DNA of 64,000 nt. Source: Lytechinus pictus. Taxonomy: Eukaryota. Numbering within the stretch: position 1 is the stretch's first letter; every line of letters starts with the position of its first letter. The stretch spans positions 14,448,001 through 14,512,000 of the forward strand of contig NC_087245.1 in assembly GCF_037042905.1 (NCBI RefSeq), given 5' to 3'. Made by a program: the position numbers and the translations under genes. Of the stretch, positions 10,801 to 40,600 are shown in pieces. The notes beneath the pieces are model-generated. The model made no database searches. It was not told the origin of the DNA and was given only the letters and a program-made list of their open reading frames with translations.

Positions 10801-13800
10801 ATATATTATTATATATAGTATTTCATTACCTAACTACTATAGTACCTTGGTAGCTCGAGATAGAGCCGGTTGAATAACAATTGCCCTTTGGTTTCACTGA
10901 CAAATGTGTTTCAATCTAGCAATCACGGCTATTTATATTATCATTGTTGTTGTTTATTGCCTTTATTATCATCTTCAATATTATTATCATTAGAATTATT
11001 ATCATTATTATATCAATCAAAGTTAGGTTCGGTATCTCCATAATATGTTCTTTATAAAGTCTTCGCTATTGTATTCAATTTATGTAGAGAGTAAAATAAT
11101 GATTATGAAAAAGGGGCAATACATATTTTTTCAATTTTCCCAATGTGCAGTGCTCACGAATATTCATGAATGATAAACTGGTCGGTGATAGGCCTTCAGA
11201 AAATTCACTCGTCATTATTTGCTTGGTCATTAAACGTCTTAAGAAGACTTGTCTTAATCTAGATATGAAACCACAAAGACATTCATTTATTTCTTATTTA
11301 CCCTAAATTTCATTGTGCAGATATCTTTGTTGATTGATACTTTAACAAACGTTTCCATAATATACAGGGGCGGATCCAGCCTTCGCCAATAGGGGGGCCC
11401 GGAATTTTTTTTCAGCCACATTTTCCCCGATCGGCCGCTCGAAGTTAATTTTTGTTTGTTTATATATAAATATATATTAATATAATATCATAAGCCTTAT
11501 TTAAAAGTGCGAGCTTTTTTTATTTTATGTATTTTGTCTTAAAATTTAAACATTTTGGGCAATGTTTATGATCTTAAACGAGATGTGTATCCAACTAAAT
11601 AATTGCTGCGAGCGCGAAGCGCGAGCAGAAACTTTTAATATACGTTTTGATTTGATAAAAAGGGATCTGCTAACGGCAGCTTGTTAGCCATGATAACGTT
11701 ACATATTTCAACTATCAAATAATGCGAGCGTGAAGCGCGAGCTGAAAATTTTGACATTTCTACCTGAAGAATGGAAAAGGAAAAGTTTAACTAAATAATT
11801 GATGCGAGCGCGAAGCGCGAGCTGAAAAAAATTAAAGGGGAATCCAGCCTTGGCCATAAAATGTTGTGTTGGGAAGGAGAAAAATAAATTAAACAGAATT
11901 GTGAAAGTTTGAAAGAAATCGGATAAGCAAAAAGAAAGTTATAGCTGCTTTAAAATTGAGATCACTAATACTATGTAGATTTCAAATTGGCAACTGGGTA
12001 AGTAAATTATGACAAGGGGCAAGGACAACTTTTCCATAGGCCATGTACTTTATTATCAGGGATTTGTGGTTTTCTCTTAAGTACCCATTCCCCTGGGGGA
12101 GTAATCTAAATATAACCCAGGTAGTATATTGTTTTATGTCCTCATGAAAGAAAAATATAATTTGAAATAAAACTTTTGGGAAAAATGACATTATAGCCAT
12201 AATATGTATTGGAGTACATGGAAGAGTAGTCCTTGCCTTACATCACTATGACATCCCATATGCGGCCAATTTGAAGTCTCCATGGGTATAGTGATTACCA
12301 ATATTTACAACTTTTAAAAATGCATAACTTTCTTGTTGTTTGTCCAATATTGTTCAAACTTTCACCTATCAACTTGTCTGATTTTTCTTTTCCTTATAAA
12401 AACACGTTTTTATTTGGGTAGGATTTCCCTTTAAGATTTAAACTCTAGATATTTTGTAAATCATGAAAAGGATGAGTAATTGGAAATCTTCCTACATTAA
12501 TAATGCGAGCGCAAAGCGCGCAAGCAGAAAAAAAAATATTTTTTTAATATACGTTTTGATCTGATCAAAAAAGGATCTGTTAACGGCTACTTGTTAGCCA
12601 TGATAACGTTACATATTTTAACTATCAAATAATGCGAGCGCGAAGCGCGAGCTGAAAATTTTGACATTTTTACCTGAAGAATGGAAAAGGAAAAGTTTAA
12701 CTAAATAATTGATGCAAACGCGAAGTAAGAGCTGAAAAAAATAAGATTTAAACTCTAGATATTTTGTAAATCATGGAAAGGATGAGTAATTGGAAATCTT
12801 CCTACATTAATAATGCGAGCGCAAAGCGCACAAGCAGAAAAAAAAATTATATACGTTTTGATCTGATCAAAAAAAGATCTGTTAACGGCTACTTGTTAGC
12901 CATTATAACGTTACATATTTTAACAATCAAATAATGCGAGCGCGAAGCGCGAGCTGAAAATTTTGACATTTCTACCTGAAGAATGGAAATTCTAAGCACT
13001 TTTTGTAATCGTGAAAAGGATAAGTATATAACTAAACAATTGATGCGAGCGCGAAGCGCGAGCGAAAAAATTCTGGACACTCTATTCATGTTTTGTCAAT
13101 CATGAAAAGGATGAGTAATTGGAAATTTCCCTACATTAATAATGCGAGCGCAAAGCGCGAGCAGACATTTTTTGATATTGTGATCTGAAACTGGATAATG
13201 ATTTAGATAGAGAACAATCTGCGGATCTGAATAAACGAGTGTTTCAGATTCGACCTAGTATTTGGGTATTCTAAATACCTTTCTTATCATGAAAATCAAT
13301 AAAGCGAGTGCAAAGCGCGAGCTAAAAATACAAGATATTCCCATCTAAAAAAGGGTAAATTTAAGCTCTGTATTTCAAGAACTTTGTGGGAGAATTGTGA
13401 GGTGGGTATGGATCACAGTTAAAAAAGAGCTAATATGTTTCATTAATATTACTTTGAGTTTTTATATAGGACCGGGACATTCTATAGGGACATTATGTCA
13501 TCATATGAAAATGATGACTATCTTCCTATTTCCCTTCTTAAGCATGCATAGCGCAAAATCAGTTAATATTATGGCCTGAAAACTGGACGTTTAAAGCACT
13601 TTTGTAATTATGAATAAGATACACGAGTTAAATATCTTTCAACAATCAATGCGTGCGGAAATCGCGAGCCGAAATTTTTGATAAACTGTTATCAAAATTG
13701 GGGAGTTTAATATACTTGACTCACCCATCAAAATGCGAGCGTGCAGCGCTAGCTGATACGTTTTGACAATATGACCCGAATAGGGATATTTTGATAACTT

Positions 13801-16449
13801 TATGGAATACAGGAAAATAATAGGTATCTGACAAATCAAATTTTGCGAGCGCGCAGCGCAAGCAGAAAATGTTAATATTCAGACCATAAAACAAAAAAAA
13901 ATACAGAGCATTTTTCAAAAATCAATTTGTAAATCAAACAAAATAATGAAAGTTCAATTTCCGAGCTGAAATATGTTTTGTATACCGACTTCAAAATTTG
14001 ATATTCTAAGCTTCATATTGAGCAAGATATGTAAATCACCTAAAAGGGAATGCGAGTGCAAAGCGCGAGCGAAAATTTTATATCCCGACATGAAAGATTT
14101 TTTATAATTATTTTCCAATTCTTCCCCTCATCTTATTTTATTCACTCGTCTTCCCCCTCTTATGTTTCCCTTTTTTCTCATCTCTTTTCCCTTCTTTTTC
14201 TTTTTTTCTTTCTTTCCCCCTTTTTATCTTTTTTTGCTCCGCCAATAGGGGGGGGGGGGGGCGGGCCCCTCGCCCCCTGGATCCGCCTATGATATATATG
14301 TATTTTTTGAATTATTTCCAAAAGTGAGGTTTTGCATCGATTAACAAACGAAGAAAGAGGTTCAAGTTTGCACCCTAAATGCCACAGTCGCAGCAAAAAG
14401 GTGCAAAAAAATTATTTGACTCCTTTAAGGTGGAAAAGTCTTATGTTTGTGATACATAATGGCACCCAAAAAGGAGCTTCTGTCGTGGTGCATAAATATG
14501 AAGGTTACAATGTCATGCTAAAGCATTTTTTTAAAGAGCGATATGAACCTTTTGTAATTATCATTTCTTGGTAAAAATCAATGTCTTCCCTTTACTGTTT
14601 TGAATTTCAACCTTTTTTATCTTCATCATTTTACTTCTTAAATGGTAGCCAGTCATGTAACGTTTTGTGTTTTTGTTTACTTTGTAGAAATAAAGATGAA
14701 TCAATCGATTGTTATTACAGGTTTATCCAATCACACCTTCCGCCTCAGTCAAGCGATCGGCGGAACTCGTCTCCAGTCTCCACCATCTTGCGTGGCGCAT
14801 CTCAGGGAGGCGTTTGTGAAGCAGAACAAACTGATCCAAGCAGCTTACTACACCATGTGTAACTACATCCTGGGTTCGTACGTAGAGAAAGCAAGAAAGA
14901 ATGCACCTGTGGTGCTAGACAGGTTCGTAACACACTCTCGCTCATTTATTTTAGTATAGGCTTAGTTCTTCACATGAGCTTCTAGTAGCTACTATACTAC
15001 TTCCGAAAATGAAATACCAACTATACCCCCATCCTTTTGTTATGCTTTGAAGTGGCATATCAGGGAAGAACACTTAGCATGCAGGGTATCAGTCAATTAG
15101 GGCCATGCTTCTGTTCCAGGTCACATACGACTTGGAAGCTTTGTCACATCTGACCTTATTCTTGGTATTTTTTTAACCCAAACGGAGTTCGAGTGTGGCC
15201 CCAACTGACTGATGTCCAGATCAAATCCGATCCTGGGCTTTTGAGACGCTCTGAGTGTAAATGTTCTTTTCAATTCTCAGGTTCTGGAACAGCACCGCTG
15301 CTTTTTCTATAGCGTCGGAGATTGAGAGAGGCGTATCGAACCTCCCACCGAAAGATCACTTTGTGTATGAGTGGCCACAGGACCTCACCAAACCTGACGT
15401 AGTCATACTAGTTGGATCCAAGAAGGCCATACGACACAAGAGCAACCGGAGCGGTGGCGAGCGTATTACCAAACAACTGTAAGTTAAAAACCTTTCTGGT
15501 TTGAAAAAAAAATTGTGAATCGTTTTTGCCTATATCTCATCCTTAGCTACGGAGCCTTTAAAGTGCCATCGACTTGACGACTTGGCGAGATACTTTATCT
15601 TGCCATGACGACATAATAACCTTATTATGTCGACATGGCGAGATACGTTATCTCGCCAATTCGACTTATAAAAGGTTATATGTCAACATGGCGAGATACG
15701 GTATCTGGCCAAGGTGACATATAACTTTTTATAAGTCAACTTGGCAAGATAACGTATCTCGCCATGTCGACATATAACCTTTTATAAGTCGACTTGGCGA
15801 GATAACGTATCTCGCCATGTCGACATAATAAGGTTAATTAAGGATGTTTAGCGCCCTCTTTCGGTATAAAAAAAATAAAGACAAGATAATGATTGCATAT
15901 TAAAAAAAAGCTGCATTCAAAGATTACATCTGCTATTTTGTAAATGTGTGGATTGAAAAAGTAAAAATCATTAATGGGATTTTAAATACAAAATAGCCTA
16001 TATTTACATCGGAAAGAAAAGGATGAAGAAACGTATAAAAGGTAAAATCATATTTTACCTAAGCTAATGCAAAGATGTTGATTATTAAGTGATTCAATCA
16101 CATCAATATATCTGGAGGGTGCGCCTTTTGACCAACTGCATTGCTCTTTTTGATCTATTGTTTTCCACGTTGTCACAGGATGTTTGAAATCTTACGCCGG
16201 ATGAAGACTTCGTCTTGGATCGAAGTTGATAGTATCCGAGACCAATGCCATTCAGATGAAGCTGTTACCATGGTGACAGTGGACAAACTGCAGTCCAAGA
16301 ATATTGGTAACTTCCGGTCCGGCCCTAAAGAGAATGGGATGTGTCCTGGTACCGGACTGTATGCAACCAAGGAACACGATACCCTGCCCGTTGGCGGGCT
16401 TGTGGTACTTAAGGAAAATTTAGAACAGGAAGAGATTGGATTCATGTGA
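7067..16449 (+). CDS. Five-exon gene: DUF3293-like domain fused to a CMPK2-like (UMP-CMP kinase 2 / thymidylate kinase fold) domain with a degenerate P-loop; 534 aa
   Basis: Exons 7067-7864, 9474-9609, 14721-14922, 15281-15478 and 16179-16449. All introns are GT-AG with compatible phases (0,1,2,2). The spliced product reads SVFHGLHDALSVLSK|CDYLPEAGELM...HPVIVMEGTSEA|GLSNHTFRLSQAIGGTRLQSPPSC...PVVLDR|FWNSTAAFSIASE...NLPPKDHFVYEWPQDLTKPDVVILV. This is colinear with vertebrate CMPK2 as I remember it (PEARAVL...VVAIEGLDATGKTT...KSPPSC...PVIVDRYWHSTATYAIATE...LPPAHHPVYQWPEDLLKPDLILLL). Confidence 0.85.
8483..8634. mobile_element. Short hAT-like MITE
   Basis: TIRs CAGGGGCCGCGGAA / TTCCGCGGCCCCTG, internal polyG/polyC tracts, and imperfect AT-rich TSD (TAATAATA/TAATATAC). 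Confidence 0.75.
9474..9609 (+). CDS. Exon 2 of the DUF3293-CMPK2-like gene (PEA helix, beta1 and first half of the P-loop)
   Basis: Acceptor TTCCATTCTACAG| and donor GCAG|GTACGT. Encodes CDYLPEAGELMKIAHC...HPVIVMEGTSEA. Confidence 0.8.
9993..10269. mobile_element. MITE with ~43-bp perfect terminal inverted repeats
   Basis: CAGGGCCCCGTCTTACAAAGAGTTACGATTGATCCAATCAATC at the left end and its exact reverse complement at the right. A diverged second copy lies at 35376-35649. Confidence 0.9.
11365..14291. mobile_element. ~2.9-kb non-autonomous TIR DNA transposon with internal ~300-bp tandem duplications
   Basis: Ends CAGGGGCGGATCCAG / CTGGATCCGCCTATG. Many GCGAGCGCGAAGCGCGAGC motifs. A repeated internal unit occurs at ~11630-11830, ~12440-12740 and ~12740-13050. 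Confidence 0.8.
11836..12430. mobile_element. TTAA-targeting MITE (Kolobok/piggyBac-type) nested in the 11365-14291 element
   Basis: TTAA|AGGGGAATCC...GGATTTCCCT|TTAA. The corresponding uninterrupted sequence (GCTGAAAAAAATAAGATTTAAACTCTAG) is seen in the tandem copy at ~12732. Confidence 0.8.
14721..14922 (+). CDS. Exon 3 of the DUF3293-CMPK2-like gene
   Basis: Acceptor TTATTACAG| and donor AG|GTTCGT. Encodes (G)LSNHTFRLSQAIGGTRLQSPPSC...APVVLDR. An in-frame alternative acceptor lies at ~14687. Confidence 0.85.
15281..15478 (+). CDS. Exon 4 of the DUF3293-CMPK2-like gene
   Basis: Acceptor TTCTCAG| and donor CT|GTAAGT. Encodes FWNSTAAFSIASEIERGVSNLPPKDHFVYEWPQDLTKPDVVILV, including the CMPK2-typical WPxDLxKPD. 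Confidence 0.9.
15565..15836. repeat. Foldback array of ~42-bp units in inverted orientation
   Basis: Units such as ATGTCGACATGGCGAGATACGTTATCTCGCCAATTCGACTTATAAAAGGTT run forward to ~15710 and then appear as reverse complements. Each unit is itself hairpin-forming. Confidence 0.8.
16179..16449 (+). CDS. Exon 5 (terminal) of the DUF3293-CMPK2-like gene
   Basis: Acceptor TGTCACAG|. MFEILRRMKTSSWIEVDS parallels CMPK2 YQRMENPGCHVVDAS, followed by a C-terminal extension. TGA at 16447-16449. Confidence 0.75.
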
Positions 16450-20760: not shown

Positions 20761-21310
20761 ATGCAAAATTACAGCCCAGAAACCTGGACACCAGTTAACC
20801 CCCAGAGAACTCCATCCACCTCATCATCGACTGCAACGATAACAGGGCATCTCATTGCTCCTCGTCCAGAAGCTGCCCCCATTGGCCACTTGACCGCCCC
20901 TCATCACCCGACATCGGCCGTACCGCTAACCCATCGCTATACTTCTTTCTACAACAATTTGGATGGCAGCTCGAGTAATTCCTCGGCCACCATCCCGCCC
21001 TACAACGATGAATACTCTGCGTGGAATTCCTTCGATTTTTCATCGCCGACGACCCACCCCCACCCACATCAAGCGACAAGGAGTCCATTTGCAGCTGCCG
21101 TGCATCATGGCCACTTTCACCATCACAGTCCCACTGCAATGACGCCGAACCCACAACCGACCGGTCTTAATCCCACCGCTGCCACCATGGGTGTTGGTTC
21201 ACAGCACCGTGACACGCTGCTCTCTGCAGCGGCTGTGGCATCAGCAGCAGCGGCGGCCGCGGTCTCAGGGAGCAACTTCGTCAACATTTCTCATCGACAT
21301 CCTTCTTTCA
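20761..21310 (+). CDS. Hox gene exon 1 (low-complexity transactivation-type region)
   Basis: GC-rich [12 protein letters not shown]...HRHPSF with donor A|GTAAGT. Phase 1 matches the exon 2 acceptor. Confidence 0.8.
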
Positions 21311-24300
21311 GTAAGTATGATATGAAATATTGAAAACATGCTAATTAAGAAAATTACGCCTACATAACACTTAATCAAAACTATCATCAGTTTTGCAGTT
21401 TTTAAAGGTTGAAAAGAAAACAGATACAGTATACATTCATTTGTTATATAAAAAAAAAAATAAACACACCTTAACTTTCATAACTCGAAGATTTGCGACT
21501 CCCTTAATATAAAAGCAATAAGCTAGCTAAGCTAATATTTGATGCGAAATATCAAACAAAAAGTAATGATAACTTTGTTAAATGTATGTAACTTTCGACA
21601 TAATACATGTGAAACAAACTATAATTGAATCTTGAAATACCTATATTAACTCAGGGAGTTGAGTTTAGACTCTCAACTCCCTGATTAACCTATCGATGAG
21701 CAAGATTATTCCCCTTAAAATCCTGCATATTGATAAACTATAACACGAAAAGCATGCAACAAAAACAACAATAGAAAGCTTCCATGCAGTCTCCTTTCAA
21801 ATTTTGACAAGTTTGGGCATGACTCTACTTTCATTTGGTACAATCAGCCGAAAATCATCATTAGCCCAATATAATCGACTTTTCAATATGTATATTTCAG
21901 GTCAGAAAAGGGGCGTAACATTTTGACCAATGAAAGTCGTCCCCCCCCCCTGATTTTGAAGCAAAAACAAATTGTAACTAAAAAGGACTAAGTGGTAAAT
22001 GGGCTTAATGGCAATTAGACTAATTGGTTAGGAGACAAACTAGCCGTAGAGAAAATAGGATTATTTAGACTGTGTAGGATGAGACCAAACAGAACGAAGA
22101 CAAAATGTGCTAAGTGCCAATTTATCACAATAACAGAGGATGCTTGGTCACTTCTTAAAGTACTTTTTTTGTCATGAAATGAATATGTTGATACTTTTTA
22201 GCCTAATTTTTTAAAGAGAGATTTTCACGAAAAACTCAGAAAGAACTCAGAAATATCGAGAAGAATTGACACCCCAATAAAGCGACTTGTTTAACCCGAC
22301 TGTAAACCAGTCTTTGAATTGAGTTGGTGTTTTGTTATTAAAAAAACAATATTGCTTATAATGGGAGCATGTTATGTGAACAATGGTGGAAACTGTGGCG
22401 GTGTGTATTGTTTGAATGCTGCTTTGGCAAATAATTCAAAATTTGTAAATCTTCATTGTCTAAAATCTCTTGAAAAAAGAAACTTGCTAAGATAGCTGCC
22501 ATTTGCCGTTCAGAGACTCTATACATTTTCATCAGAAACGAAATATAATATCCATAAAAAATAGTTAAAAACAAGAAAACATAAAATTCGCAGCGTAAGA
22601 GCAATGGTAGTTTTAATGTATATTTCAAGCTTCCATGACAATACAATATTAAATGAGCAAGGCACGGTCATGACGGTGGTTACTCATTGTTCTTTATGAA
22701 CAATTTTTTTCTGTAGTTTATGGAAAACTGCTTATTCCAAAGCATTTAATAAATTAATTTGTCAACATTCTCTACAAATAATATTCTCATAAATATATAA
22801 TTAATTCCCGCGTTTTGATGAGATAAATTTATAATTAATTGGCCATCAACTATAAACTAATAAATATGATTTTTTTTCTAATAGTATATTATAGATAACA
22901 TACATTATGTCATTCGCGTTCTGAAACCATGGAAACTATCGGTCTTTAGATTTTATAATCAGCGTCATAAAAATAATGTTTGAAAGTTAATAAATATTAT
23001 CTATTTGTTGGATGGTTATGAGAAAGAACCAGTATTTCCAGAACTACTTCAAATTCTACTTCACACATTTTCGGTCAGCCATTTAGAACTCCTGCAGATT
23101 TCACAAAGATCATGGTTACAGTATTTGTCCTACCTTTTAATCACAAACGGATGCTAACTGTAGATAAACAGAAAGTCAGCCACTTCTCTTTATCAAAATA
23201 TCCTCTGATAGAAGTTTATAGAACATTATTTGTCATATCATACTTTTAATGACGTGCTGAGAAAAAGGAATTCTAATAATACGATTTAGATGTCAGTCAT
23301 TTAGCGCTGATTTTTTTTTTACAGGTGTTTGGTTTTTATTTCATTGATACAATATAATAATGAAATTATATGTTATTAATATTACCGCTATGTCCTAATC
23401 CACTGTTTAGTACGCTAGTTAACAAAACGGCAGGCTATAATGTACAGATTACAACTTTTATGGAGATTGTTACTTTTTATGATTATAACAAAAAATTATC
23501 CCCAATTTCATTCACTGTACTACACACATTTAGGAGCTTCTATGGAGACCGTTCACATGGCACGGGTCCAATATAAGGATTGTTTAGAATTTTAGTGTTT
23601 CGCAGTTTATGATGCCACATTAAAACTATATCAAATGCTGATATTGAAAAGACACATATCAATTTTTATGTAGAGACAGTGGAAACGTGCGAATGGCTGA
23701 ATGCTGTGCGCTTTTGGAGTATTTAAGTGCAAAATACCGCACGCGTTTCTACCCGCTTAATGTTAGAGATAGGACGAGGGCCTTGGATCATAAGAAAATA
23801 AATAGCGGATATAAAGTTTTATAGACGATGAGAAGGTATAGTGTGTCGGTATTCCGTTTATATGAATGGTACCAGCACATGGTATACTAGAATACAATAA
23901 GAAATAAGATAGAATGGAAAATATTTTTTATGAAGTCACGAGAAGATAAATTGAAGGCTATATACCCTGAAATCGAGTTTATTAGCATGATTAGATTGAC
24001 GGGTATGACTGTCAGATAGATCCTACATGATGAATGCGTGATAGAAGCGAGAGAGTAAGAGAGAGAGAGAGAGAGGGAGGGAGAGAAAATGAATGGAGAG
24101 GAGATGGAAGAAAAAGAGAGTTGGTTGTCAGTGATAGATGGATATGTAAAAGGAGAAATGGAGAGGGAGTATACAAGAGAGAGAGAGAGATTCATCGTAT
24201 TTTTTTGTAATCATCATCATCGCAATTTGTAATCATCATCATCACAATTACCAGTCTTCATCATCATCACATTTATTGTTACTATCATTTTTAATTGTAT

Positions 24301-24349
24301 TATTATGTGTCATGATATTATTATTCTGATTGTATTATTATCATTATTG

Positions 24350-24403
<54 letters not shown>

Positions 24404-25400
24404 ATTAATATAAATTATCATCTTCATATTCATCGTCGTCATCTACAACATCATTATCACTGTAATAATTACTGTATTGTCAAGATTTTTATTAACATTA
24501 CCGTTATATTTTTATGACAATAACCTAATATTGGCATTGATAATAATGCAATGACGATGAAGGTGATGATTATGAGGACACCATCGTTCATTGATATAGA
24601 ATTCAAACAAATTTGAAACAAAGAGAAGACAGCAATCTTCTCCCACCATCTCTCTGTCAGATGACTTCATTAACTTAATTATTATCTAATCGTAGACTTA
24701 CAATAAATAAATAGTCCAGAGTACACCTTTTCTTACAGCAGGTGTTCATAATGATTAGGGCAAAGATACATCTCATTACATTTATTAGCACATCGGGTAA
24801 AAAATTCCATTTTCATTTGCTGACGTGCTAGAGTATTTTTCTGAGCAATCTTGCATTATGTTTCAGAGCACACTCTTGTTTTCTCTCGCAATATTGATCT
24901 TGCACTAGGATGAGTAAAATGAGGAAAAACATTGAATTTATTAGCCGACAAGTAACAAAAGCTTGATTATAATTCTGCCTTCTCATCCCTCGGATAGGAC
25001 GTTAAATGGAGGCCCCGTGTAGAGGAGAGTAACCACATTTGCACGTTAAGAACCCACTGCACTATTCGTATAAGTGTAGGGGGAAACCCCGGTTTAGTGG
25101 TCCACCTGCACTCCCCCAATCAGTTATATCGGGAGGAGAGACCTGCGGGTCACAGTGATTCAGTTCGCTTTTTGCCTCCCAGGCACAGGTGATGCCAAAC
25201 AAATAATAAAAAATAAAATAAAAAACAACAGGAAGCAACTCTTTTTTTCATCGACTTTTTCTCTGATTTGGAATATTTCTAAAATGGCATTTCAAAGATA
25301 AGATCTCAAAGCATCTATTAACATCAAAATATAGATATAATAATTTCAAACAAATTTTTTATAAACTTTTCAAAACTGTCCCGTTTTTTTTTATACGCAC

Positions 25401-25437
<37 letters not shown>

Positions 25438-28400
25438 TGTGTGTGTATGTGTGTGTGTATGTATGTATGTATTTTATTCAGAAATTATGAAGGCTTGGCA
25501 AGACTTAAGGAGATTTCGTTATTCTGAAGAGGAGGTTAACCCTATTATATTCAATAATCAACATATTTGTATAAAAGGTAAAACAATTTTTGACAATGAT
25601 CTTTTTAATAAAGGAATATTTAGCGTTGATCAAATCTTTGATAATGGCCACTTGAAGCCTGTGACTTTTTTTCAAAATCTCGGTATTACCGCAAATCAAC
25701 TTCTCCAAATAATAGATATTGTGCACGTTATACCAGCAAGCTGGAAAATTTTTAATAGTTTAATAAAGTTTAAAAAAATTGATTTGGTAGACTTTGGGAT
25801 AAGTATGAATATTGGAAAACAGGAAACAGCTTTTGAAGTAATTAAATCAAAAACAATTTATAACTTGTTTATTACTAAGCTACAAGAGCTATACAAGTTA
25901 ACACTTAAGGATGGTCACAGTGATTTTGATTTTACTGATGTAGAAATTTGTAAATTATTTGAATATATCAGGAGTACAACTCTTATAAGAAAACAAAGGG
26001 AATTTCAGTTTATGCTTTTACATGGAGCAATATATACAAAAGAGCATTTGATGAGATTTGGTTTCGTGGGAGATAATTATTGTTCGTTTGGTTGTACAAA
26101 AACTGAATCGTACTTTCATATACTCATGGATTGCATAAAAGTTAAACCTCTTTGGCAATTTTGTATTGATCATTTTTGTTTAGCTGAATTAAGAACTTTG
26201 AATTGGAGGGAAATATTCTTAGGGTTACCTGGAAATTCTTGTAGAATTAAATGTGTCAATTCTGTTATTCTTTTTATTAAATATGCAATTTTTAATTCCA
26301 GAGCTGAAGGCCGGGTACCGTCATTTATTAAAATACACAAATATATAACGGGTTGTATAGAAGAAGAAAGACGCCTGGCAACGAAGTCAGGCAAGTTAAG
26401 TTTACATTTGCAGAAATGGGATGAACTGAAGGTGAAAAGGGATTTGAATGTGAACAGGTGGGATGTGTCTAGTGTGGTGCGAGTGTGAATCCTGGTGTGT
26501 ATGTTGATGTTTTTTTTTCTTTTTACTAGTTCTTTTCAATTTCCCCTTCTCTTGTATCAATATGATTTGCAGGGTTTTTTTCTTTCTGTATCCTATTGCG
26601 CCAAAATGTTAAACGTTCATTATGCAGATTTGTATATATTATGTTTGTTTACGTATGCGTGGTATGTGCATGTGTGTATGGGTGTTAAGGTGGGTGTGTG
26701 TATGTGTGTATAATTATGTAAAGTTATGTTGAAGCTTGATTTAAAATGGGATGCAATGATAATACATTTAGGTTGATTTCTGTTTTCCTGCAAATCATTT
26801 ATATAGCCGTTTAACATTAATTATTATTGAAATACATAGAGGGTTGGGGACTCAGTTGAGTTATTTTTTTTTTTTTTCAGATATGAAAATATAATTTTAA
26901 GGAGTTTCATTCCGTCCTTATTTGCTTCAGTTCTTGGTAAATATATGTACTTTTTTGCATATCCTTGTTGATATGAAATGAAGATTTGTATTTTGTTTTG
27001 TATTTATCTGCAGTTTATGTAATTCATTTGAATGAAATCCTTAATAAAAACATATTGAAAAAAAAAATGTATACTTCCACATATTTTCCTCATATACTAA
27101 GCTAAGACACTCATTCCACAGTTTTTGGCTAGGGACGGCAGAATTTATGAGCAATTTGCACCCAAAAATAATCCACAAACTAGTTACGAGGACAAACTAT
27201 TTAGTTAAATTCATAATCTTAGTTACAGTGTGTTTTTTTATTATAATACTTGACGTTGATATCATTTGCTATTCTCCTATCAAATCTTTTTGAAATAAAA
27301 TTCCGACAGCTTCCTCTGTTGTAGTTTCATATTCATATAGTTTCAGTTCTTTTCATCATATTCATCATATCATTGTAGTCGTCACCATATTGTCATCATT
27401 AACATCTTTATCGTTATTATTCATCGTCAATCGAAGTTCCATCATCATGGTCGTGATCACAATCATCAACATAAACTCATCATGGTTGTCGTTGCTATAT
27501 CTCAATCACCACCACAGCAACTGGCGTACAGATGAAGAGTGGAGGTGGTGGGGGGGGGGGGGTCTTGGGGCCATGGACCACACCCCCTCCCCCAATTGTT
27601 CATGATCAAGTAAACAGGAAGGAAAGGGTGTGAAATATATTTTTTTCTAGATTTTTTGTCAAAATCTATCATAGACTTTGATTTTTTAAATTCGTATTGA
27701 AAAGGTCGCTCGCTCGCAGCTTTTCAGAGATTTTCCCTGTACGCTATGTCTGGCCCCCTTCGTCAAAATTTTCGACTCACTACGCTACTTGCCATGGCCA
27801 CTACATAATTTACCACTTACGTCAACACCATTGCCACACCACCACTGCCACACCACCACCACCATTTAAACATGCAGAACTCACAGAATAGATCTATCTT
27901 TATTTCCCCCACAGCGTCACAAAGCCATGGCAGCAACTGGGTTCCGCCGTCATCGTCCAGTTCGGCTCGGAGGACGAAAAGGAGACCGTATTCGAAGCTC
28001 CAGATCATCGAACTCGAAAAAGCTTTTCAAGAAAACATGTACTTGACAAGGGAGAGGAGGACAAGAATAGCAGATTCTCTTAATCTCACGGATCGACAGG
28101 TCAGTAAAGATATGTATATATATACAGAATACAGATCTTTCAGATAGATATATAGCAAGCTAGATGGATAGATAGATAAACTGATAGTAAGACAAGTTAG
28201 ATGCATATATCGTTTGGTAGACATCTAACATCTGGGCCCCATTGCATAGAACTTACCTTTATGGTAACTTTGTCATCCAATGGTAACCTCCATGGAATCC
28301 TTGATTTTGATTGGCTGTTGATCATTGTTTCCATGGTAGTTACAATTGGATGGCAAAGTTACCGTAACAGTAACTTTTATGTAACTGGGCCCTGAAATCA

Positions 28401-28656
28401 GATGTCTTCTCTGGTGACAAGTTACATCTTCTTACCCCCCCTTCTCTCTTTGCCTTTCTCCTTCACTTTATTTATCGCTCTTTCTACTTATCACTCTCTC
28501 TCTCTTTTGCTGCAGGTGAAAATCTGGTTCCAGAACCGCCGCATGAAGATGAAGAAGATGACAGAGCGAGAACGAACTGAACAGGAGCAAATAGAACGAG
28601 AAAAGCAGGCCCTGGGAGCAAAGTTTTACATCAAGACAGAACCAACAATGATGTGA
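20761..28656 (+). CDS. Posterior (Abd-B class) Hox homeodomain protein, Hox11/13b/c/d/e-like; three exons, 291 aa
   Basis: Exons 20761-21310, 27915-28099 and 28516-28656 (phases 1 and 0, GT-AG). Homeodomain [59 protein letters not shown] is preceded by the posterior-Hox NW motif (GSNW). Exon 1 is Pro/Ser/His-rich with polyAla. Confidence 0.92.
24990..25225 (+). mobile_element. SINE-like 3' fragment in Hox intron 1
   Basis: GC-rich block starting GGATAGGACGTTAAATGGAGGCCCCGTG and ending in an A-rich tail (AAATAATAAAAAATAAAATAAAAA). Confidence 0.5.
25405..25470. repeat. (TA)n(TG)n compound microsatellite
   Basis: Seen directly; it abuts the 5' end of the truncated LINE. Confidence 0.9.
25471..27067 (+). 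mobile_element. 5'-truncated non-LTR retrotransposon (L1/Tx1-like): ORF2 C-terminus with zf-RVT-like region, 3' UTR and poly(A)
   Basis: Uninterrupted ~340-aa frame with [18 protein letters not shown]...[27 protein letters not shown] (zinc-binding C-terminal region of L1/Tx1 ORF2). Stop at 26488, then AATAAA at ~27044 and an A-run to 27067. No RT or endonuclease core. Confidence 0.88.
27915..28099 (+). CDS. Hox gene exon 2 (NW motif and homeodomain up to RQ)
   Basis: Acceptor CCCCCACAG| and donor CAG|GTCAGT. Confidence 0.93.
28232..28395. mobile_element. MITE in the homeobox intron
   Basis: Imperfect TIRs CTGGGCCCCATTGCATAGAA / TTTTATGTAACTGGGCCCTG. Same end type as the 9993 MITE. Confidence 0.6.
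28516..28656 (+). CDS. Hox gene exon 3 (recognition helix and C-terminal tail)
   Basis: Acceptor TTTTGCTGCAG|. Encodes [46 protein letters not shown]. Confidence 0.95.
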   Translation: MKIWFQNRRMKMKKMTERERTEQEQIEREKQALGAKFYIKTEPTMM

Positions 28657-31096: not shown

Positions 31097-31258
31097 TTAA
31101 AATACTCATGAACACAGTTTTTCACAAGTAAACTTATCATTGTATAAACTCAGACAAGGTACAGTTGCACAATTGAAGAAATCATAATAAATCAAGGGGT
31201 AGGGAATAAACATCAACTTTTAAAATATAGAATACTTAAGCCAGATGCAGCTCCTCCA

Positions 31259-31520
31259 TCACTCCTCGTCCTCCGAAGCCTCGACGCCGGCCTCCACGTC
31301 AGCCCTCACCGACTTGGTACTCGCCTTCTTCTGCGGGGCAGCATAGGTGGGGTCTGTAGAGGTGGGCGTGGTGGAGAAGCTGGTGGTAGCTACCTCATAG
31401 GCTTGTCCATTGGTCTGGGGAGTGATGGAGGGCGGGGCTGATTTCTTGATGTCCTTCTCGTCCTCTACAATGCGTTCTCCGGATTGGAAATAGACATTTT
31501 CGTTGTAGGTGCTGTCTCTT
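31259..31520 (-). CDS. Terminal cytoplasmic exon of the membrane protein
   Basis: GC-rich exon RRDSTYNENVYF...PTYAAPQKK...EASEDEE*. Phase 2 acceptor CCATCCAG. Confidence 0.8.
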
Positions 31521-31664
31521 CTGGATGGAAGGTGGTTTGAAGAGGATTTGAAGGAAGGTGTGATAAATGGAAGAGGAAGAGAAAGAAAGCCAGGAGAAGA
31601 ATTAAATATTGTTTCATAGGAAAAATAAATAGAGAGATACATGACAGACAGAAAGACAGACAGT

Positions 31665-31696
<32 letters not shown>

Positions 31697-34600
31697 TAGA
31701 TAGATAGATATATGAAGGGATAGATACGATAGATAGATAGATAAATAGATAGATAGATAAGACATAAAATAGAGAGAATTGATAAGAGAGAGGGAGTACA
31801 CTTGATTATCATTGGGTACATTTCAAATGTTATATTTTCAAAATTTACAATATTTTTTTAATAGAGGCATACATTTTATCATTATTTGATATCACTTGAA
31901 AGCAAAAAACAAAATGAACCTATGGAATAGACATAATCTAATTCTAATAATGATCAATGTTGCATTTTTTCTGAATTATTCATGAAAAATTAAGCGGTAC
32001 AATGATATATGGGGCAAAAGCAATTTGTAATGTAACAGCAAAGAGCAAACTTTACATCTATTTTACAAAATATGAAGAAAAAAATCAATAAAAGGAATTC
32101 AGTATTTCTGGAAAAAATATTTTTTGTATGTTTACCCAACATTAATGTCATCATTGTGACTAATTTCAATAACTATACATCTATATCATCATAACTAATC
32201 TTTCATGGAATATTTTAGTATTATGTAATAGTATTTCTGGTTACTTGCACATTTCTACCAATATTCAATATCATATCTCACCTCTTTTCATTATTTTCTG
32301 AGTCAACGGTTGCAGTGACTGTTCCCAAAGAATGCAAACAAGAAAAAAGTAGAAAACAAAAATTGATTATAAATAGGAGTTGACATCTCTTTGTTGAATG
32401 CATGAATCTGCAAGGGGGGTACAGGAAGCTTGTACCTTAATCGGAATAGAAATTTATAGGATACTTGCATGGTAGTGACTTAAGGGGGGTACATTTAACT
32501 GTGACATAAATGTCATGAGATGCAGATGAGTACAATATTTTCTTTTGCAGCAAGTGCCAATATTTCATACCCCCAAAAAAAAAAATAATGTCATCCAATA
32601 TCATACTACATACAGCAAAATTGTGATAAAATTCTAGATTCTGATAAAATGAAGATTCTCCCTCCCGCATGTTCCCAAATTGAAAAAAAAAGTTCATCAT
32701 TCCAGCTATTTCTATTGGCTTCCTGCCTGGTACTTCTGGCCTGGCACTTCAAGAATGCTTGACAAGAAGTAACACACCAGTTTCACTCTATAAGCCTTGA
32801 CTTGATATGAAATGGAAAACTTAAGCATATATTTTCATGACATGAAAACTTGCATGTTTCAAAATGTTTTAATGTACATGTATATGCATGGGAGATGGTT
32901 CAAACAAATGTTTAAACAACTTGCATTTAGAAAGACCTTGTATCACAGATTTAGGGGGAATTTCGTCAATGACTACTCCATGTTCCTACCAGGGCTTCGT
33001 AACACAAAGGTTTGCAATGAATTGCAAATATGAAAGAACCGCAGATTGGTTCCCAGTCAGTATTTTAAACAGAGTGCGCATTGGTCACTGGTATTTAGCG
33101 ATTAATTGCAAACCTTTGTGTTACGGAGGTCCTGTCACTATCCCAGCCAAGCCACTTTGTCATGTCAAAGAGAATATCATTGCATTGAACACAGAGTTAT
33201 AATAGCCATGTTTTTTTTTTTACTTGATGAAAACCAATAAAAGGCCTAATCGTCTAAGCAGCAATAATTGGAATATTACAGAATACATTTCTGTGTTTAA
33301 ACCTAGCCCCCCCCCCTATAGAATAAAAAAAAAAATCTTTGATATAATGGTCAGTAATCTCACACAGTCTTTATGCATGGATGAAAAGCATGGAATGTAT
33401 GGAAATAGTGCAACGTGGTGGAACTGGAAGACTAGACTAGTTAGATCAGAGCCAGAGAGGTGGATTAAATAAGTTTTTTCCACCTCTATGATCATAGCCT
33501 AATACTTCAAACTACTGGGACCTGTAACACAGTGACCAAATGGCCATTTTGCAGTCAATTTTTTTTTCTTATTATAGCTGTTTTGATTCCGTTTTTAGTG
33601 CTTTCAACAAACATGAATAAAAATAAAAAAATTGTTGATTTTCATAGATTAGTTTATGGGTATTATTAATTAATGAAATTGATACAAAACAAGGGATTTG
33701 TCCATTTTCCTCAGATTTTTTTTTTTTTTTGCTAGAACTCTTACATAATCTCCAAGGTCATGTCCAAACACATCACTGCATCTTTAAGCAGCAATCCTAT
33801 TCTGCATCATTTTACATTTAATCCTCCGCCTCCTGCTTTAACAAATAAAAAGTGGATAGAATATAAGATCCTGCAGTGACAAATTTTTTTTATATTTAGT
33901 ATGTTATGAAAGTGTTCCTATGTAGGATGATAACTAAGGAGCATCTATCGTTGGGACAACTTACCATTCGGCATCATTTGCAGTGAATCAACTGAGGGTG
34001 TCTTCTCATCTCTGTACATTAAAGTGAAAGAAAATAAATGAGTTGTAAGAACTATGATACATGCTTCCATTATCCTTATTGCATATAGCCAAAATACTAG
34101 GTGATATCAACTATCAATATCAACATCCAGGGTAATTTGATGGGACATGCACTCATCCCTGTCATCATCACCACCTTTGTCATTAAAGTGACACACAGAG
34201 AATCTTGATATTTTTGCATCATGAATTCTTCCTCCTTCTCTTACTCATCGTCATCATCACAACCACTACCACCATCACCACCACCACCGTCATGATCATC
34301 ATCCAAAGTAATTTCTGAGTTCTATACTTTTGTTTTATGAATTTCCACAAACCCCCTTCTCCCACCACCTCTTTCTCTCCCTCCTCATCATAATTATCAG
34401 CAACACTAATAACAAAATATCCTTTTTGTCATCATCAAAATCATCAAATCATCACCATAATCATATCATCATCATTATCATCATCACCTCCATCTATACC
34501 ATCAACATTATGGCATCATCAAGGAAAGTTGAAATTACTCATGATTTTTCTCCACAACCTCATTCACCCATCTTTTCTCTTTAAAGTCAGAATGTTCTTA

Positions 34601-37600
34601 ACTTTGTATGGTATCAGAAGGTTAAAGGGTTTTCAATCAGACTGAATATTTCACTTGTTTGGCTGCATTTGATAGACAATTACATTGCAGAAATAACACA
34701 GTTTTATTTCAAATTTTGCCTCAGAAAAGAATGGCAGGACATCTATCCAAACAAAACAGGTTCAATTCAACAGATGAGTAAAACTGAAAAACACTATAGT
34801 GGAATTACATCAAAACAAAAAGAGAAGAGAATTATGGCATTATGGCATTAATTTTCAAACAGAAGTGATATGTCTCATACAAGCATTATAATTTTTTTCA
34901 TTAAGACAAATGAGCTGATGATGTCAGTCACACAAACACACAATTTCTTTGATACTTCACAGAATGTCAAATCTCTCAAGTTTTTATTTCAAAAATATAT
35001 GTTACATAACAACACCACATTTCTGGCTAGAAAAATGGTATCAAATAAAATATATCTTGGATTTTACAACACGACTTTGAAACAAGATTTTGAAAAGCAC
35101 AAAGGCATAATTAGGGAGATTACCGGTAGTTAGAACCCTTTGAAGCTCTGTAATTCTCATTTCACAATCTCTGTGCCTACATTTATTTCAGTTTTAAGCT
35201 CCCAGAACCAGTATCATAAAGCTGTTTGTAAGTTACAAGTGACTTAAAGGACGACTGGTGATCCTGTAGTGGAACACAACAGAATTCCATTGGAGTTGAT
35301 TTAGTTCCTAAGAAAGGATCATCAGTCATTCGTAAAGTCACTCGTAACCTACGAACAGCTTTCTGAAACACCCACCAGTGCCCTGTCTGACAAAGATTTA
35401 CAATTGATCCAATCAATCTTAAGTGTATGGAAATCCATCAATGTCATAACTTTTCTTTAGGAAATTTGCTCAATATCCTTTGAAAACAATGAGAAGAATA
35501 CTGAATTGTCAAGAAAAAACAGTGAATGTATGAATAAACATTTCTAAAAAATATTTTGAACAAACACGTATTTTAGATGATGACGTTACTGGCTTTCCAT
35601 AGCTACAATTGATCAGATCAATTGTAACTCTTTGTAAGACAGGGCCCTGGTGTACTTACATTTTCTGAAATGGGTATACAACATTTTTTTGATAGATGAA
35701 CACATTTAAGACACCTTTTCAAAAGTCTTTGCAGGATCTTTCATCAAGGATCCTGCTAGTACTGTGTCCTTACATAGTGGCATACCCACATTCTACATTG
35801 ATTTTGTCTATGGTGAAATGTGAGAATGAAGAAAAGTTTGTGATTCCTGAATGAGAGACATTTTACTTTGCCCTTAATGAATATAAAAATTATCAGGATT
35901 ATTTGGATTACCTGTAAGTCATACATACTACCTCCACTACTTAGTTGCCCACAATGATGGCTACTGCAGTACTGCTCAAAGAGTCCTAATCATCCTTCCT
36001 ATTTTATTTCATCTGACTTAATTTACAACATTATCACTACTGCCTCATATGATATTGCAGATGGTTATTCTCATACTTCAGTGAATGCGATCCACCCATT
36101 ACCAGTAAAAAAAATATAATATTGATTTTTTTTATAATGAAATGAAAGAATAGCAGTAGTCATTATGTGAGCAGCAAGCATGAACAATTAATTTTCTACA
36201 TTTTGTTAATTTTCCAATAACATCAGATAAGCATGTCCAAATTTGTATTATGCTTGGGTGAGTTTTGTATTCATGTTCATAATGGTACATGTATATGGTG
36301 TTTGTATACAATTACATAGAGTTTTAATGTTTGGATGATACATTGCCCAGGCAAACAACTGCTCTATAAATAATCTCAAATCTGCACATAAAGCCAAGCT
36401 TTAAAAGATAAACATCAAACTAACTTCTAGGCCAACTCCTAATCCCAAGACTAAACCTCACATTATTGTGAATAAAAATAACCCTATCAATAAGTATGGT
36501 TTCATAGCAATTAAGAAAGGAGAAATGGCCTAGCCACAATATAAATCCACTTGCACGCATCTCTGATGTTATTTTACAAGCTCTATGACTGCCATGCATA
36601 TTGCGTTTGTTGTATCAATAAACGTAAATAAATAATGATTGATAAGACTTGGTGCCCCACAAAGGAATCTTAGGCAATGTGCCTTTCTTTAGTGCCCTAA
36701 TTTAAAGTGGTTTTGACCCCCCCCCCCATTCTGACCCCGAGGTTGATGAAATGTTCTGAAGTGAACTGCTGGTCTTCCTGGAGCCCTCAACCAAGCGATC
36801 TGTATGTCATAACATTACTTTGGGGAGTAGACCTTTTACGGAGGAAAGACATTGCAAATAAGGAACCCATAAATTAATTGCAAATCAGAATTCTTAGTGG
36901 GAGGATGAATCATTAATAATTTATAAAGAGTAGAGAAATTGGCAAACACATCATTTCTTGTTAAACCTCCTGTAGAATTGTTGATTATACACTGATGATT
37001 CATTAAAAATGTGGCATTGGCCTTATCGCCACATAAAAATATAAATTGGAAACATACGGCTCATGTGGGACCTCATAGGAAATTTGGAATACATATTATG
37101 ATTTTTGCAAAGGCCAAAGTGAGGATTATTCAACAGAATCTATGATGATGACGATGATAATGACAACGAAGATGATGATGATGAAAGCTAATCCTAATGT
37201 TTGGGGTACTCACTTGAGATCTATCTATCTGATATGAAATTGACCTATATGTAGGAAAATTAAATCAGTTTCTAAGATATGGTAAGTGGTATTTCATGTG
37301 ACATATCTCTCTACTGCTTCACACATCATTCTAATTAACTGAAGAAGTTTTAATCATTCAATATTCCGGTAACATAGAAAACCACTGCATTTTTTAAATA
37401 TTTATTTTTCTTTTTGATTGCTAAAGAAGTGATATGAATGACAATGATTGTCAGAAGAGTAACATAAAATGAATATACTATAAAAGAGGGTATATATGAT
37501 TAAAGATATAATGACTGTGTAGCAATGAATATGGCCTATTACTATAAGGCCTTTGATAGTAAGTGATTAAAATAGTGTCCCAAATGTGACAAGATATGCC

Positions 37601-40600
37601 CTGACTGGTGATCACTAAAACCATCCTGGTTGGTGTTTCATAAAACTGTAAGTTACGAATGACCTTATGCACGACTAATGACCTTTTCTTGTGCTAAATG
37701 ATATATCCCTATCGACTTAGCAATTACAAACATATTCCAGTCGTTTGTAAAGATTTTCATAGCTTTACGACCAGCTTCAGGAAACACCCAACAGTGCCCC
37801 ATTGCATAAACGTTACCACAACTATGTTGTTATCAAATTTAACATTCTTTTTGTTAATGGGAGTACGCTATCATGTAGTGCACAGGCCAAGAACCTGAAC
37901 CAATCACGCACTTTAAAGAAGACTGTACAGCCTCTTTTTGGGGGCAGGAATTCTGGCCAGCACCTATCATCACAACTGTCACACATTCTTCATTGTTATG
38001 ATGTCTAAGCTGAGAAAGAAATGAGATTAGAAATGAAAAGATGCTAAGCAGTATTCCTGCAGAAAGAAGCCCAGTGCACACTATGTGATGCAATGGCACT
38101 AACATCCAATCCCATCTCGGTGCAATCAGATCGCGGGCCAGCGCACACATTGCAACAGCTCTGCAGCCCACTGCATCTAATGGCGCCTCTTCTTTTGCGC
38201 GTATGTTGTCTGTGCTGCAGAGGCGCAGCAAATTGGCCATAAGGTCATCATCAAGGACAAATCTGATTGGCTGATATGAGCAAAATCGCAGAAAGATTTG
38301 ATGTACCAAATGACTGAGTTGCAGTTGCAGCCAGTTGTAGATTGGCGCAAACACTGTGATGTTGTTGCAATCATATCTTGGTGCAATCGCATCGCATAGT
38401 TTGCGCTGGGCTTTAAGGTGGCTTACAGGCTGATCAGATAGGTAGATGAAAATACTCACGTCTTTTTGAAACAGTCTCTGACGAGCACAACGCACAGGAT
38501 AAAGAAGCAGAAGCAGAGGAGACAAATGACGGCAATAACCCAAGGCTCTTCAATGGCGTTCGTAACCTTAGGTCGCATGATGTAATCAAAGTTAGGTCCG
38601 CCTTCCTCGATCGGAGCCTCATTTTCAATTAGGAAGTTCTCAAGCTGTTCGCTGGTCAAGGCAGCGGCGTTGCCTGTGGGGTCATTAGGATCACTGACCC
38701 AGAAGGTAACCTCGACACCCTCGCTGACCTCAACCACGCTGGTGATGATGACGTTGTCAGCACTGATGGACATAAGTGATATAAATATGTAAATCTTGAT
38801 GCAGCATAGTGGAATTGCATGATAAGTGGTACTCGAGATTGAAATGAATATAAATTGAAAACTAAGCACTCAAATAATAATCGAAACTTCAAATGAAAAT
38901 TGATGAAAAATATCAAAGTTGTGAAACTCTAAATTACAGTAAACAAATATATCAGGCTTTGAGAAAGTATAGTGGAATTATTTATCCGAGGTTGGTCTGG
39001 CAATTACTATTTTCCCGAGGGGCGAAGCCCCGAGGGAAATATAGTAATTTTGCCAGTCCAACCGAGGATTAATAATTCCCACTATTCTTTCGAATGAAAC
39101 GCCTGATATATTTGTTTTATATCCTACTTTTAATAATTTATAACCAAAATCTATGCGCTGAGCTTGCAAAGTCCGGCTACTTGCGTTAAATTACCCACTT
39201 TTCTCCGAGCCACCGCTCAGCGGAACGCAGATTAGTGCCTGCGCCGACGCATCGCGGGACTTGCCCGGGAGAGAGAGCTCGCTGGCCGGTGCGCCCGAGA
39301 GTTAAGATAAATATCCAGTTTTCTGAAATAATGACGTCGGAATATTGGTATAGCGAAAAATATATCGAGGTCTGACGTCACGCAACATCATAGTTGAAAT
39401 ATATTTGGTCACATGATGCTATTTGAACCAATCACTATACAGGATTCAATCTATGTAGGATATAATATTCAATATTTCTTATGACAATGCAATGAGTGAT
39501 CTGATGTCCAGTCATGTCCCAATTTTCTCTTCTATTTCACTACATATAATTTCAATCATTAAATGATCCCGCTTGAAGAAAATGAAATTAAACAGGATGA
39601 ACTTGTTAATGTGTACAGTTTTCATGGCCAGACTTGTTTATGGAGGTGTTGTGGTCTACTGGATATATCTATAGATAGTAGATAACATGGTTAGGGTTTC
39701 ATTTCCTGCTGTAGCACTAATCTCCTTTGGCAAGGTATTTATCTATATTTACAGCACTCAACACAGGTGAGATTATATATATGGGTATCGGGAAGAAAAT
39801 TATTCCTTGAAATGCGGGAGTGCACTATTGGTAGCTATAATTACTGACAGAAATGAGTGCCATTTAAGACACCGCTATCATTATTATCATTATGTTTACA
39901 CTCGTATATAAAGAATGAACAAAGAAAATATGCTATCAAATACACAGGGAAATGAAGAGATGAGACATCATTTGTTCACTCATTTTTGTTTCTGTTGATG
40001 GTAACACTCGGCAGGACAGCGTTTTGCTGGTTAATGCCTAGCTGGTATATAACCAATCACCTACATGTAGGAAACATTTTATGTCTAGGTCATAGTGGCT
40101 GACCTTATAGATGACAGAAATTATTCTCGGGCCTTCTTATCAAAGTGGAAACAATGGCAGAGTGGGGACTTGAACTCACAACCTTGCAATACGAGTCCAA
40201 CGCTCTAACCACTGGACCACACGACCCGTATGGGTCGTGTGGTCCGTATGAATCTGATATGTATAACTTTGTGTTTTTTATCAGTTTGATGACAAAAGTG
40301 AAACATGATAAAGAATAGTATTCACTCCACATGGAAAAAATATCATTTTACCATATCACCTTATCCATTCATTACATTCTAATACTTCAACAGAGAAAAG
40401 AAAAACATCAATTAAATTTATCAAAAAAGTGTATAAGATTTGTTGTTTTTTTACGTGAATTGGTTTCCGTTCATGTCAGCCAGACAATTTTCTTGTGAAG
40501 CCATGCAATAGACGTTTAGTTGCTCAGCTACACTTGAAGTAAACATGTCTTGGTCCTCGGGAGTTAGCTAGAAAAAAAAGAAGAATAAAGTAAGATGTCA

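What the first reader, a model, noticed from the sequence alone, without database searches (positions are those of the whole stretch)
20761..28656. Posterior Hox gene standing alone, outside a Hox cluster context
Seen: an Abd-B-class homeodomain ([25 protein letters not shown]...[14 protein letters not shown], with upstream NW). A CMPK2-like gene ends 4.3 kb upstream, a lectin receptor ends 2.6 kb downstream, and I saw no other homeobox in the 64 kb. Established: this signature is typical of ambulacrarian Hox11/13b/c, and additional echinoderm posterior genes (Hox11/13d, Hox11/13e) have been reported as unlinked to the main cluster. Inference: this is likely one of those dispersed genes or a further paralogue. 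I cannot tell which from the sequence alone.
Basis: partly seen in the sequence, partly recalled or inferred. Interest (0 to 1): 0.7.

Follow-up and report, generated by a model that had tools for sequence, protein, structure and literature searches.

The report
Sea urchin Hox11/13d, known off-cluster gene
This is an intact copy of Hox11/13d, a body-patterning gene already described in 2018 as sitting away from the main Hox cluster in sea urchins and their relatives, here between the same two neighbour genes as reported then, so it is real but not new.

Summary
Three exons (20761-21310, 27915-28099, 28516-28656, GT-AG introns) give an intact 291-aa protein. It is identical to RefSeq XP_054752315.2 of Lytechinus pictus and 250/291 identical to XP_011680299.2, the accession Szabo and Ferrier 2018 (PMC6307216) name as S. 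purpuratus Hox11/13d. All five motifs they list for 11/13d are present. A full-length tree places it in the d clade (96/90), apart from b, c and e. The flanks are the two genes that paper reports in both its sea urchins, in the same order and orientation. No other homeobox lies in the 64 kb. Small addition: in 6 of 6 other echinoderms with records on 18-79 Mb sequences, d lies on a different sequence from a cluster gene. Not tested: the cluster's position in this genome, and expression. Already known; function still untested.

The parts
20761..21310 (+). Hox11/13d exon 1 (ATG; motifs N06 20761-20799, N03 20926-20964, N04 21001-21057; His- and Ala-rich stretches)
   Evidence: in-frame stop 9 codons upstream of the ATG; motifs compared with suppl. 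file MOESM4 of PMC6307216
21311..27914 (+). Intron 1 (GT-AG, phase 1, 6.6 kb)
   Evidence: the spliced product equals RefSeq protein P0036
25436..26488 (+). 350-codon open frame inside intron 1, probably the 3' part of a non-LTR retrotransposon ORF2; not part of the Hox protein
   Evidence: Pfam zf-RVT E=3e-5, 25 bits, below the curated cut-off of 27.5; element type is inference
27915..28099 (+). Exon 2: Trp-containing N-peptide (N05, 27923-27955), Ser-rich linker, homeodomain positions 1-44
28100..28515 (+). Intron 2 (GT-AG, phase 0) inside the homeobox, between positions 44 and 45
28516..28656 (+). Exon 3: recognition helix (I47 W48 F49 Q50 N51 R53 M54), charged C-peptide C01 (28570-28629), stop
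   Evidence: C01 identical to the Lyva-Hox11/13d row
7067..16449 (+). Upstream neighbour: five-exon CMPK2-like gene, 534 codons, the published 'Tyki'
   Evidence: open, in-phase exons with GT-AG introns; Pfam DUF3293 E=4e-4, below cut-off; thymidylate kinase only E=0.05; the paper lists Tyki with pfam11697 and top hit UMP-CMP kinase 2
31259..60527 (-). Downstream neighbour, tail to tail: large CUB / C-type lectin / FN3 gene with a hydrophobic, probably membrane-spanning exon near 38456-38869; the published 'Clect/Fn3_18'. 5' end not mapped.
   Evidence: of 22 frames scanned, 3 CUB, 3 Lectin_C and 3 fn3 hits (one Lectin_C and one fn3 below cut-off), all on the minus strand; stop at 31259; no full gene model built

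Best explanation
The gene is the Lytechinus orthologue of echinoderm Hox11/13d, a posterior (Abd-B class) Hox transcription factor that left the Hox cluster early in echinoderm evolution. SHOWN here: intact three-exon gene, orthology to the published gene, conserved sea-urchin flanks. ESTABLISHED for the family (recalled): the homeodomain binds TTTAT/TTTAC-type DNA through helix 3 (I47, Q50, N51, M54) and the N-terminal arm (R5), and the upstream Trp can dock on Pbx-type cofactors. REPORTED (PMC6307216, second-hand for the in situs): the orthologue is expressed in the vegetal plate of blastula and early gastrula in the sand dollar Peronella, and transcripts occur in S. purpuratus and L. variegatus developmental transcriptomes. 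INFERRED (about 0.55): it regulates early vegetal endomesoderm or posterior-gut genes alongside Hox11/13b, driven by its own local enhancers rather than cluster-wide control; its charged C-peptide probably extends helix 3 as a protein-contact surface.
For: Identity to XP_054752315.2; 250/291 overall and 60/60 in the homeodomain to XP_011680299.2, named as Stpu-Hox11/13d in the paper. 5 of 5 motifs listed for d present: N03, N04, N05 and C01 identical to the L. variegatus rows, N06 identical to the S. purpuratus row. Homeodomain identity 49-60/60 to 13 d rows, 43-47 to 8 b, 42-44 to 5 c, 34-38 to 6 e; d-type residue at 4 of 4 discriminating columns. Tree of 42 full-length proteins: d clade 96/90, sister to e 97/95. 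Flank order and orientation Tyki(+), Hox(+), Clect/Fn3(-) as in S. purpuratus scaffold 1168 and L. variegatus scaffold 9600. d and a cluster gene on records of different length in 6 of 6 species with 18-79 Mb records. W192 aligns with the Trp before the HOXA9 and HOXC9 homeodomains, with a linker 4 residues longer.
Against: The cluster could not be located in this genome (no G000; no Lytechinus cluster protein surfaced), so 'off-cluster' rests here on non-Hox flanks and on orthologues. In the homeodomain-plus-flanks tree (47 rows) d was not resolved as a clade: d and e rows formed one set at 99/100 with e unresolved inside it. Hemichordate 11/13b-c homeodomains reach 51/60 identity, overlapping the d range. 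No expression evidence was obtained here. DNA-binding preference, cofactor use and developmental role are inferred, not measured; the three papers found to mention 11/13d gave no loss-of-function data in what I read.
Confidence: 0.97

Rival explanations
1. It is clustered Hox11/13b or Hox11/13c at the edge of the Hox cluster, with the rest beyond the window.
For: The N-terminal arm [10 protein letters not shown] is shared with b and c; one close relative (P0007, Peronella) is named 'Hox11/13c' in UniProt; the window is short.
Against: The b motifs (N01, N08, N18) and c motifs (N07, N15) are absent from the protein printed (checked by eye); b (96/90) and c (100/100) form separate clades; the Peronella name is the misidentification corrected in PMC6307216; non-Hox genes lie on both sides within 4.3 and 2.6 kb.
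Confidence: 0.01
2. It is Hox11/13e or a further, undescribed dispersed paralogue.
For: d and e share the C01 peptide and group together.
Against: Only 34-38/60 homeodomain identity to 6 e rows; e lacks the upstream Trp, present here; e has other neighbours (HNMT, astacin); this protein is 60/60 identical in the homeodomain to the published S. purpuratus d. The exon-1 search found only 4 proteins, all echinoid d-type.
Confidence: 0.01
3. Same gene, different function: it acts mainly after metamorphosis or in gonad, or is dispensable and redundant with Hox11/13b, and the vegetal expression seen in Peronella is not general.
For: Spatial data exist for one species only; transcripts were also reported from adult brittle-star arm and sea-star testis (PMC6307216).
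Against: Transcripts in developmental transcriptomes of two regular sea urchins; the homeodomain is unchanged between Lytechinus and Strongylocentrotus and kept in all five classes, which argues against dispensability.
Confidence: 0.35

Closest known systems
Echinoderm Hox11/13d (Szabo and Ferrier 2018, PMC6307216); S. purpuratus XP_011680299; L. pictus XP_054752315.2; L. variegatus XP_041476074.1
   Same: Protein sequence (identical to the L. pictus record; 97% to L. variegatus), all five d motifs, Ser-rich linker, charged C-peptide, both flanking genes with order and orientation.
   Different: Nothing of kind. Spacing to the flanks is 4.3 and 2.6 kb here against about 3.4 and 3.5 kb in S. 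purpuratus and 7.5 and 2.8 kb in L. variegatus (from coordinates). RefSeq labels the protein 'Hox-A10-like' or 'Hox-D9a-like', not Hox11/13d.
Echinoderm Hox11/13b and Hox11/13c (clustered)
   Same: Abd-B class homeodomain with RRTKRRPY arm; 42-47/60 identity.
   Different: Lack the full C01 peptide; different N-peptides (b has lost the Trp); Y/F at homeodomain position 14 where d has I/L; located in or next to the cluster.
Echinoderm Hox11/13e
   Same: Off-cluster; shares the C01 charged peptide; sister clade.
   Different: Divergent homeodomain (34-38/60), no upstream Trp, other neighbours, and on a different record from d in 6 of 6 species compared.
Vertebrate HOXA9 / HOXC9 and Drosophila Abd-B (solved homeodomains 1puf, 2msy, 5zjq)
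   Same: Recognition-helix residues and upstream Trp; best PDB matches at E 7e-21, 1e-20 and 1e-17.
   Different: T instead of K at position 3, linker 4 residues longer, echinoderm-specific C-peptide; not one-to-one orthologues.

Membership tests
Posterior (Abd-B class) Hox | Complete homeodomain with I47 W48 F49 Q50 N51 R53 M54, basic arm ending in PY, upstream Trp | tested here: met
Echinoderm Hox11/13d | Groups with published d sequences, apart from b, c and e | tested here: met
   full-length tree, d clade 96/90; the shorter alignment resolved only d+e and a three-row echinoid group with S. purpuratus d at 99/96
Echinoderm Hox11/13d | Exon-1 motifs N03 and N04, and N06-like N-terminus | tested here: met
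   compared by eye with the paper's rows
Echinoderm Hox11/13d | Trp-containing N-peptide with Ser/Thr-rich linker | tested here: met
   W192; 5 of 9 linker residues are Ser; definition
Echinoderm Hox11/13d | Charged C-peptide C01 | tested here: met
   identical to the Lyva row; 11 of the 20 residues after the homeodomain are charged
Echinoderm Hox11/13d | Sea-urchin flanks Tyki and Clect/Fn3_18 | tested here: met
   domain content, order and orientation; flank orthology judged by domains and position, not by alignment to the published proteins
Echinoderm Hox11/13d | Not linked to the Hox cluster in this genome | tested here: inconclusive
   no other homeobox in 64 kb, but no whole genome; orthologues on different records in 6 of 6 other species
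Echinoderm Hox11/13d | Embryonic (vegetal plate) expression | not tested
   no reads were laid; literature only
Echinoderm Hox11/13b | N01 N-peptide without Trp; motifs N08, N18 | tested here: not met
Echinoderm Hox11/13c | WMFxLA-type N-peptide; motifs N07, N15 | tested here: not met
Echinoderm Hox11/13e | Divergent homeodomain (MYPxRERR type), no upstream Trp | tested here: not met

The most novel reading that the evidence does not exclude
The gene is not new; the boldest reading left concerns history and function. Hox11/13d and e are sister genes from one posterior Hox copy that left the cluster in the echinoderm stem, gained the charged C-peptide, duplicated, and moved to two further chromosomes. 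Freed from cluster control, d became an overlooked node of the sea-urchin vegetal endomesoderm network, acting with Hox11/13b through its C-terminal helix. This locus gives a compact unit (about 15 kb between the neighbours' stop codons) in which to test how an escaped Hox gene keeps an axial expression domain.
Probability: 0.3. Interest if true: 0.45.

Novelty: already known. Interest (0 to 1): 0.12.

Why it matters
As a discovery it does not: gene, off-cluster position and microsynteny were published in 2018 (PMC6307216) and repeated for a crinoid in 2020 (PMC7351957). It has modest practical value. Automated annotation hides the gene under vertebrate names, and a 2026 sea-cucumber genome preprint counts ten Hox genes with no d or e in the passages found (PMC13228809). 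Only 3 papers in the held library mention it, and I saw no functional test in them. The record-length comparison extends the 2018 scaffold-level unlinking towards chromosome scale in six species.

Tried and rejected
Whole-genome search for the Hox cluster: no genome held. Indirect route through record lengths of Lytechinus cluster proteins: none surfaced among the 120 listed of 1,375 hits, the 150 listed of 14,688 or the ten clusters looked up. Expression: the run search listed 19 runs and no holder on record as RNA, which is no evidence either way; no reads were laid, so splicing and expression are unconfirmed by reads. First exon-3 boundary (28517) was one base off and gave a frameshift; corrected to 28516. 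Wrong exon edges for the upstream gene, corrected. PDB searches with two upstream-gene exons found nothing significant (best E 0.45; none). The Atlas search with its first exon gave only sub-0.9 leads to DUF3293 and SAM-lyase clusters. Homeodomain-only evidence was judged too weak alone, because hemichordate b/c overlap the d range. The UniProt name 'Hox11/13c' for the Peronella relative was rejected on tree, motifs and the paper's correction. The intron-1 frame was considered as an extra exon and rejected: it resembles a retrotransposon tail and the RefSeq protein omits it. No structure or complex prediction was run. A phrase search 'hox11 13d' found nothing even for the known paper, so it carries no weight.

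Full report
OBSERVATION. The window holds a three-exon gene on the + strand: 20761-21310, 27915-28099 and 28516-28656, with GT-AG introns of phase 1 and 0, coding for 291 residues without a break. The homeodomain is residues 202-261 and is split between positions 44 and 45; the recognition helix reads I47 W48 F49 Q50 N51 R53 M54, and a Trp (W192) lies ten residues upstream. Pfam Homeodomain scores E=1.5e-21; the best solved relatives are HOXC9 and HOXA9. An HMM from 136 homeodomains matched 2 of 3,410 six-frame segments significantly, both exons of this gene; the next was E 2.3. The window reaches only 20.7 kb upstream and 35.3 kb downstream, so this alone does not exclude a cluster.

IDENTITY. 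The spliced protein is identical to P0036 = XP_054752315.2, Lytechinus pictus, labelled 'Hox-A10-like' and recorded on a 44.3 Mb sequence. It is 250/291 identical, and 60/60 in the homeodomain, to P0006 = XP_011680299.2. Szabo and Ferrier 2018 (PMC6307216) name XP_011680299.1 as S. purpuratus Hox11/13d. Of that paper I read parts 1-4 of 6 of the main text, supplementary files MOESM3 and MOESM4 whole, and parts 1-2 of 4 of MOESM6; the two FASTA supplements could not be read and the zip of trees was not opened, so their alignment was not reused. All 5 motifs their file lists for d are present: N03, N04, N05 and C01 match the L. variegatus rows letter for letter and N06 the S. purpuratus row (compared by eye). 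The b motifs (N01, N08, N18) and c motifs (N07, N15) are absent from the protein.

TREES. From the hits I chose ambulacrarian posterior Hox proteins; most vertebrate and unnamed fragments were left out. On 42 full-length proteins, the 14 d rows form a clade at 96/90, sister to 6 e rows (97/95); b (96/90) and c (100/100) are separate. The a-e labels are mine, from source names and the paper's motifs. Homeodomain identity is 49-60/60 to the other 13 d rows, 43-47 to b, 42-44 to c, 34-38 to e and 44-51 to hemichordate b/c, and the window has the d-type residue at 4 of 4 discriminating columns. Against: on homeodomain plus flanks (47 rows) d was not resolved as a clade; d and e rows formed one set (99/100), with the window next to L. 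variegatus and S. purpuratus d (99/96). The Peronella protein named 'Hox11/13c' falls in d in both trees, as the paper reported.

NEIGHBOURS. [quoted passage not shown] Its table gives Tyki (pfam11697 DUF3293; top hit UMP-CMP kinase 2) upstream on the same strand and Clect/Fn3_18 downstream on the opposite strand. The window shows the same: a five-exon, 534-codon gene at 7067-16449 (+) with DUF3293 at E=4e-4, below cut-off, and nine CUB, lectin or FN3 frames on the minus strand among 22 scanned, with a stop at 31259. Flank orthology rests on domains and position, not on alignment to the published proteins. The paper found this pairing only partly outside echinoids: the lectin gene lies about 1.6 Mb away in Acanthaster.

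OFF-CLUSTER STATUS. No whole genome was held and no Lytechinus cluster protein surfaced, so this was not tested directly. As a proxy I compared the lengths of the records that carry d and a cluster gene. In 6 of 6 species with both on records of 18 Mb or more they differ: Asterias rubens d 22,587,610 v b,c 22,888,987; A. amurensis 24,821,337 v 28,008,033; Amphiura filiformis 78,615,430 v 64,335,885; Apostichopus japonicus 18,212,455 v 29,647,521; Diadema setosum 30,926,319 v a 39,439,362; Patiria miniata 41,642,996 v 48,504,769. In each, e is on a third record. Control: b and c share one length in both Asterias species and in Acanthaster. Left out of the count: three species with short scaffolds (Acanthaster, D. 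antillarum, Anneissia; also different) and four without a cluster gene in hand (L. pictus, L. variegatus, S. purpuratus, Antedon). The proxy assumes one assembly per species. Li et al. 2020 (PMC7351957; passages only) likewise place crinoid d and e on other scaffolds.

HOW IT WORKS. Shown: an intact gene for a posterior Hox protein, conserved in all five echinoderm classes. From established knowledge of Abd-B class proteins (recalled): it binds TTTAT/TTTAC-type sites through helix 3 and the N-terminal arm, and the upstream Trp, which aligns with that of HOXA9 across a linker four residues longer, may contact a Pbx cofactor. Reported in PMC6307216 (the Peronella in situ paper itself was not seen): vegetal-plate expression at blastula and early gastrula, more vegetal than Hox11/13b, and transcripts in S. 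purpuratus and L. variegatus developmental data. Inferred, about 0.55: an early vegetal endomesoderm or posterior-gut regulator run by local enhancers. The rival, a mainly adult or redundant role, stays at about 0.35. No read evidence was obtained here.

NOVELTY. Already known. Searches for 'Hox11' + '13d' + 'echinoderm' and for '13d' + '13e' + 'Hox' + 'echinoderms' each returned the same 3 papers; the third (PMC11861897, one passage) only cites the gene. The library lacks most subscription journals, so later functional work may exist unseen. Passages of four newer papers (PMC11310086, PMC12126913, PMC13228809, bioRxiv 2023.02.05.527185) discuss Hox11/13a-c and showed no mention of d; the preprint's supplements were closed. 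Verdict: a correct and well-spotted observation of a published gene in its published setting; interest 0.12.

Noticed in passing
window 7067-16449 (+): CMPK2-like neighbour: N-terminal exon with a weak DUF3293 match and sub-0.9 Atlas leads to SAM-lyase clusters; the expected P-loop across the exon 2/3 junction has Leu-Ser where the Walker A consensus (recalled) has Lys-Thr/Ser, so the kinase may be inactive. Covered by another note of this scan (e1-8075862).
   Followed up: partly
window 25436-26488 (+): Uninterrupted 350-codon frame with a weak zf-RVT match inside Hox intron 1, starting right after an (AT)n/(GT)n microsatellite; probably a fairly recent 5'-truncated non-LTR retrotransposon copy.
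   Followed up: partly
P0035 (XP_041476074.1, L. variegatus): Its homeodomain differs from the window's at positions 13 (T for I) and 40 (F for L), while the 2018 L. variegatus model has I and L there: allele or assembly error.
   Followed up: no
P0007 (UniProt X5I198, Peronella japonica): Still named 'Hox11/13c' although it is Hox11/13d; RefSeq d orthologues carry names such as Hox-D9a, Hox-A10-like and mab-5-like.
   Followed up: yes
window about 11590-14070 and 15560-15830: Introns of the upstream gene hold many copies of a short GC-rich palindrome-like motif within longer repeated units, and a separate small array of similar units (seen by eye); likely common sea-urchin repeats.
   Followed up: no
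P0008 / P0041 and P0087 / P0286 (Diadema antillarum): Two near-identical records each for Hox11/13d and Hox11/13a on different contigs; probably uncollapsed haplotypes rather than duplicates.
   Followed up: no
window 28657-31258: The 2.6 kb between the convergent Hox and lectin genes holds 15 AATAAA/ATTAAA hexamers on the + strand; the 3' UTRs may approach or overlap.
   Followed up: no
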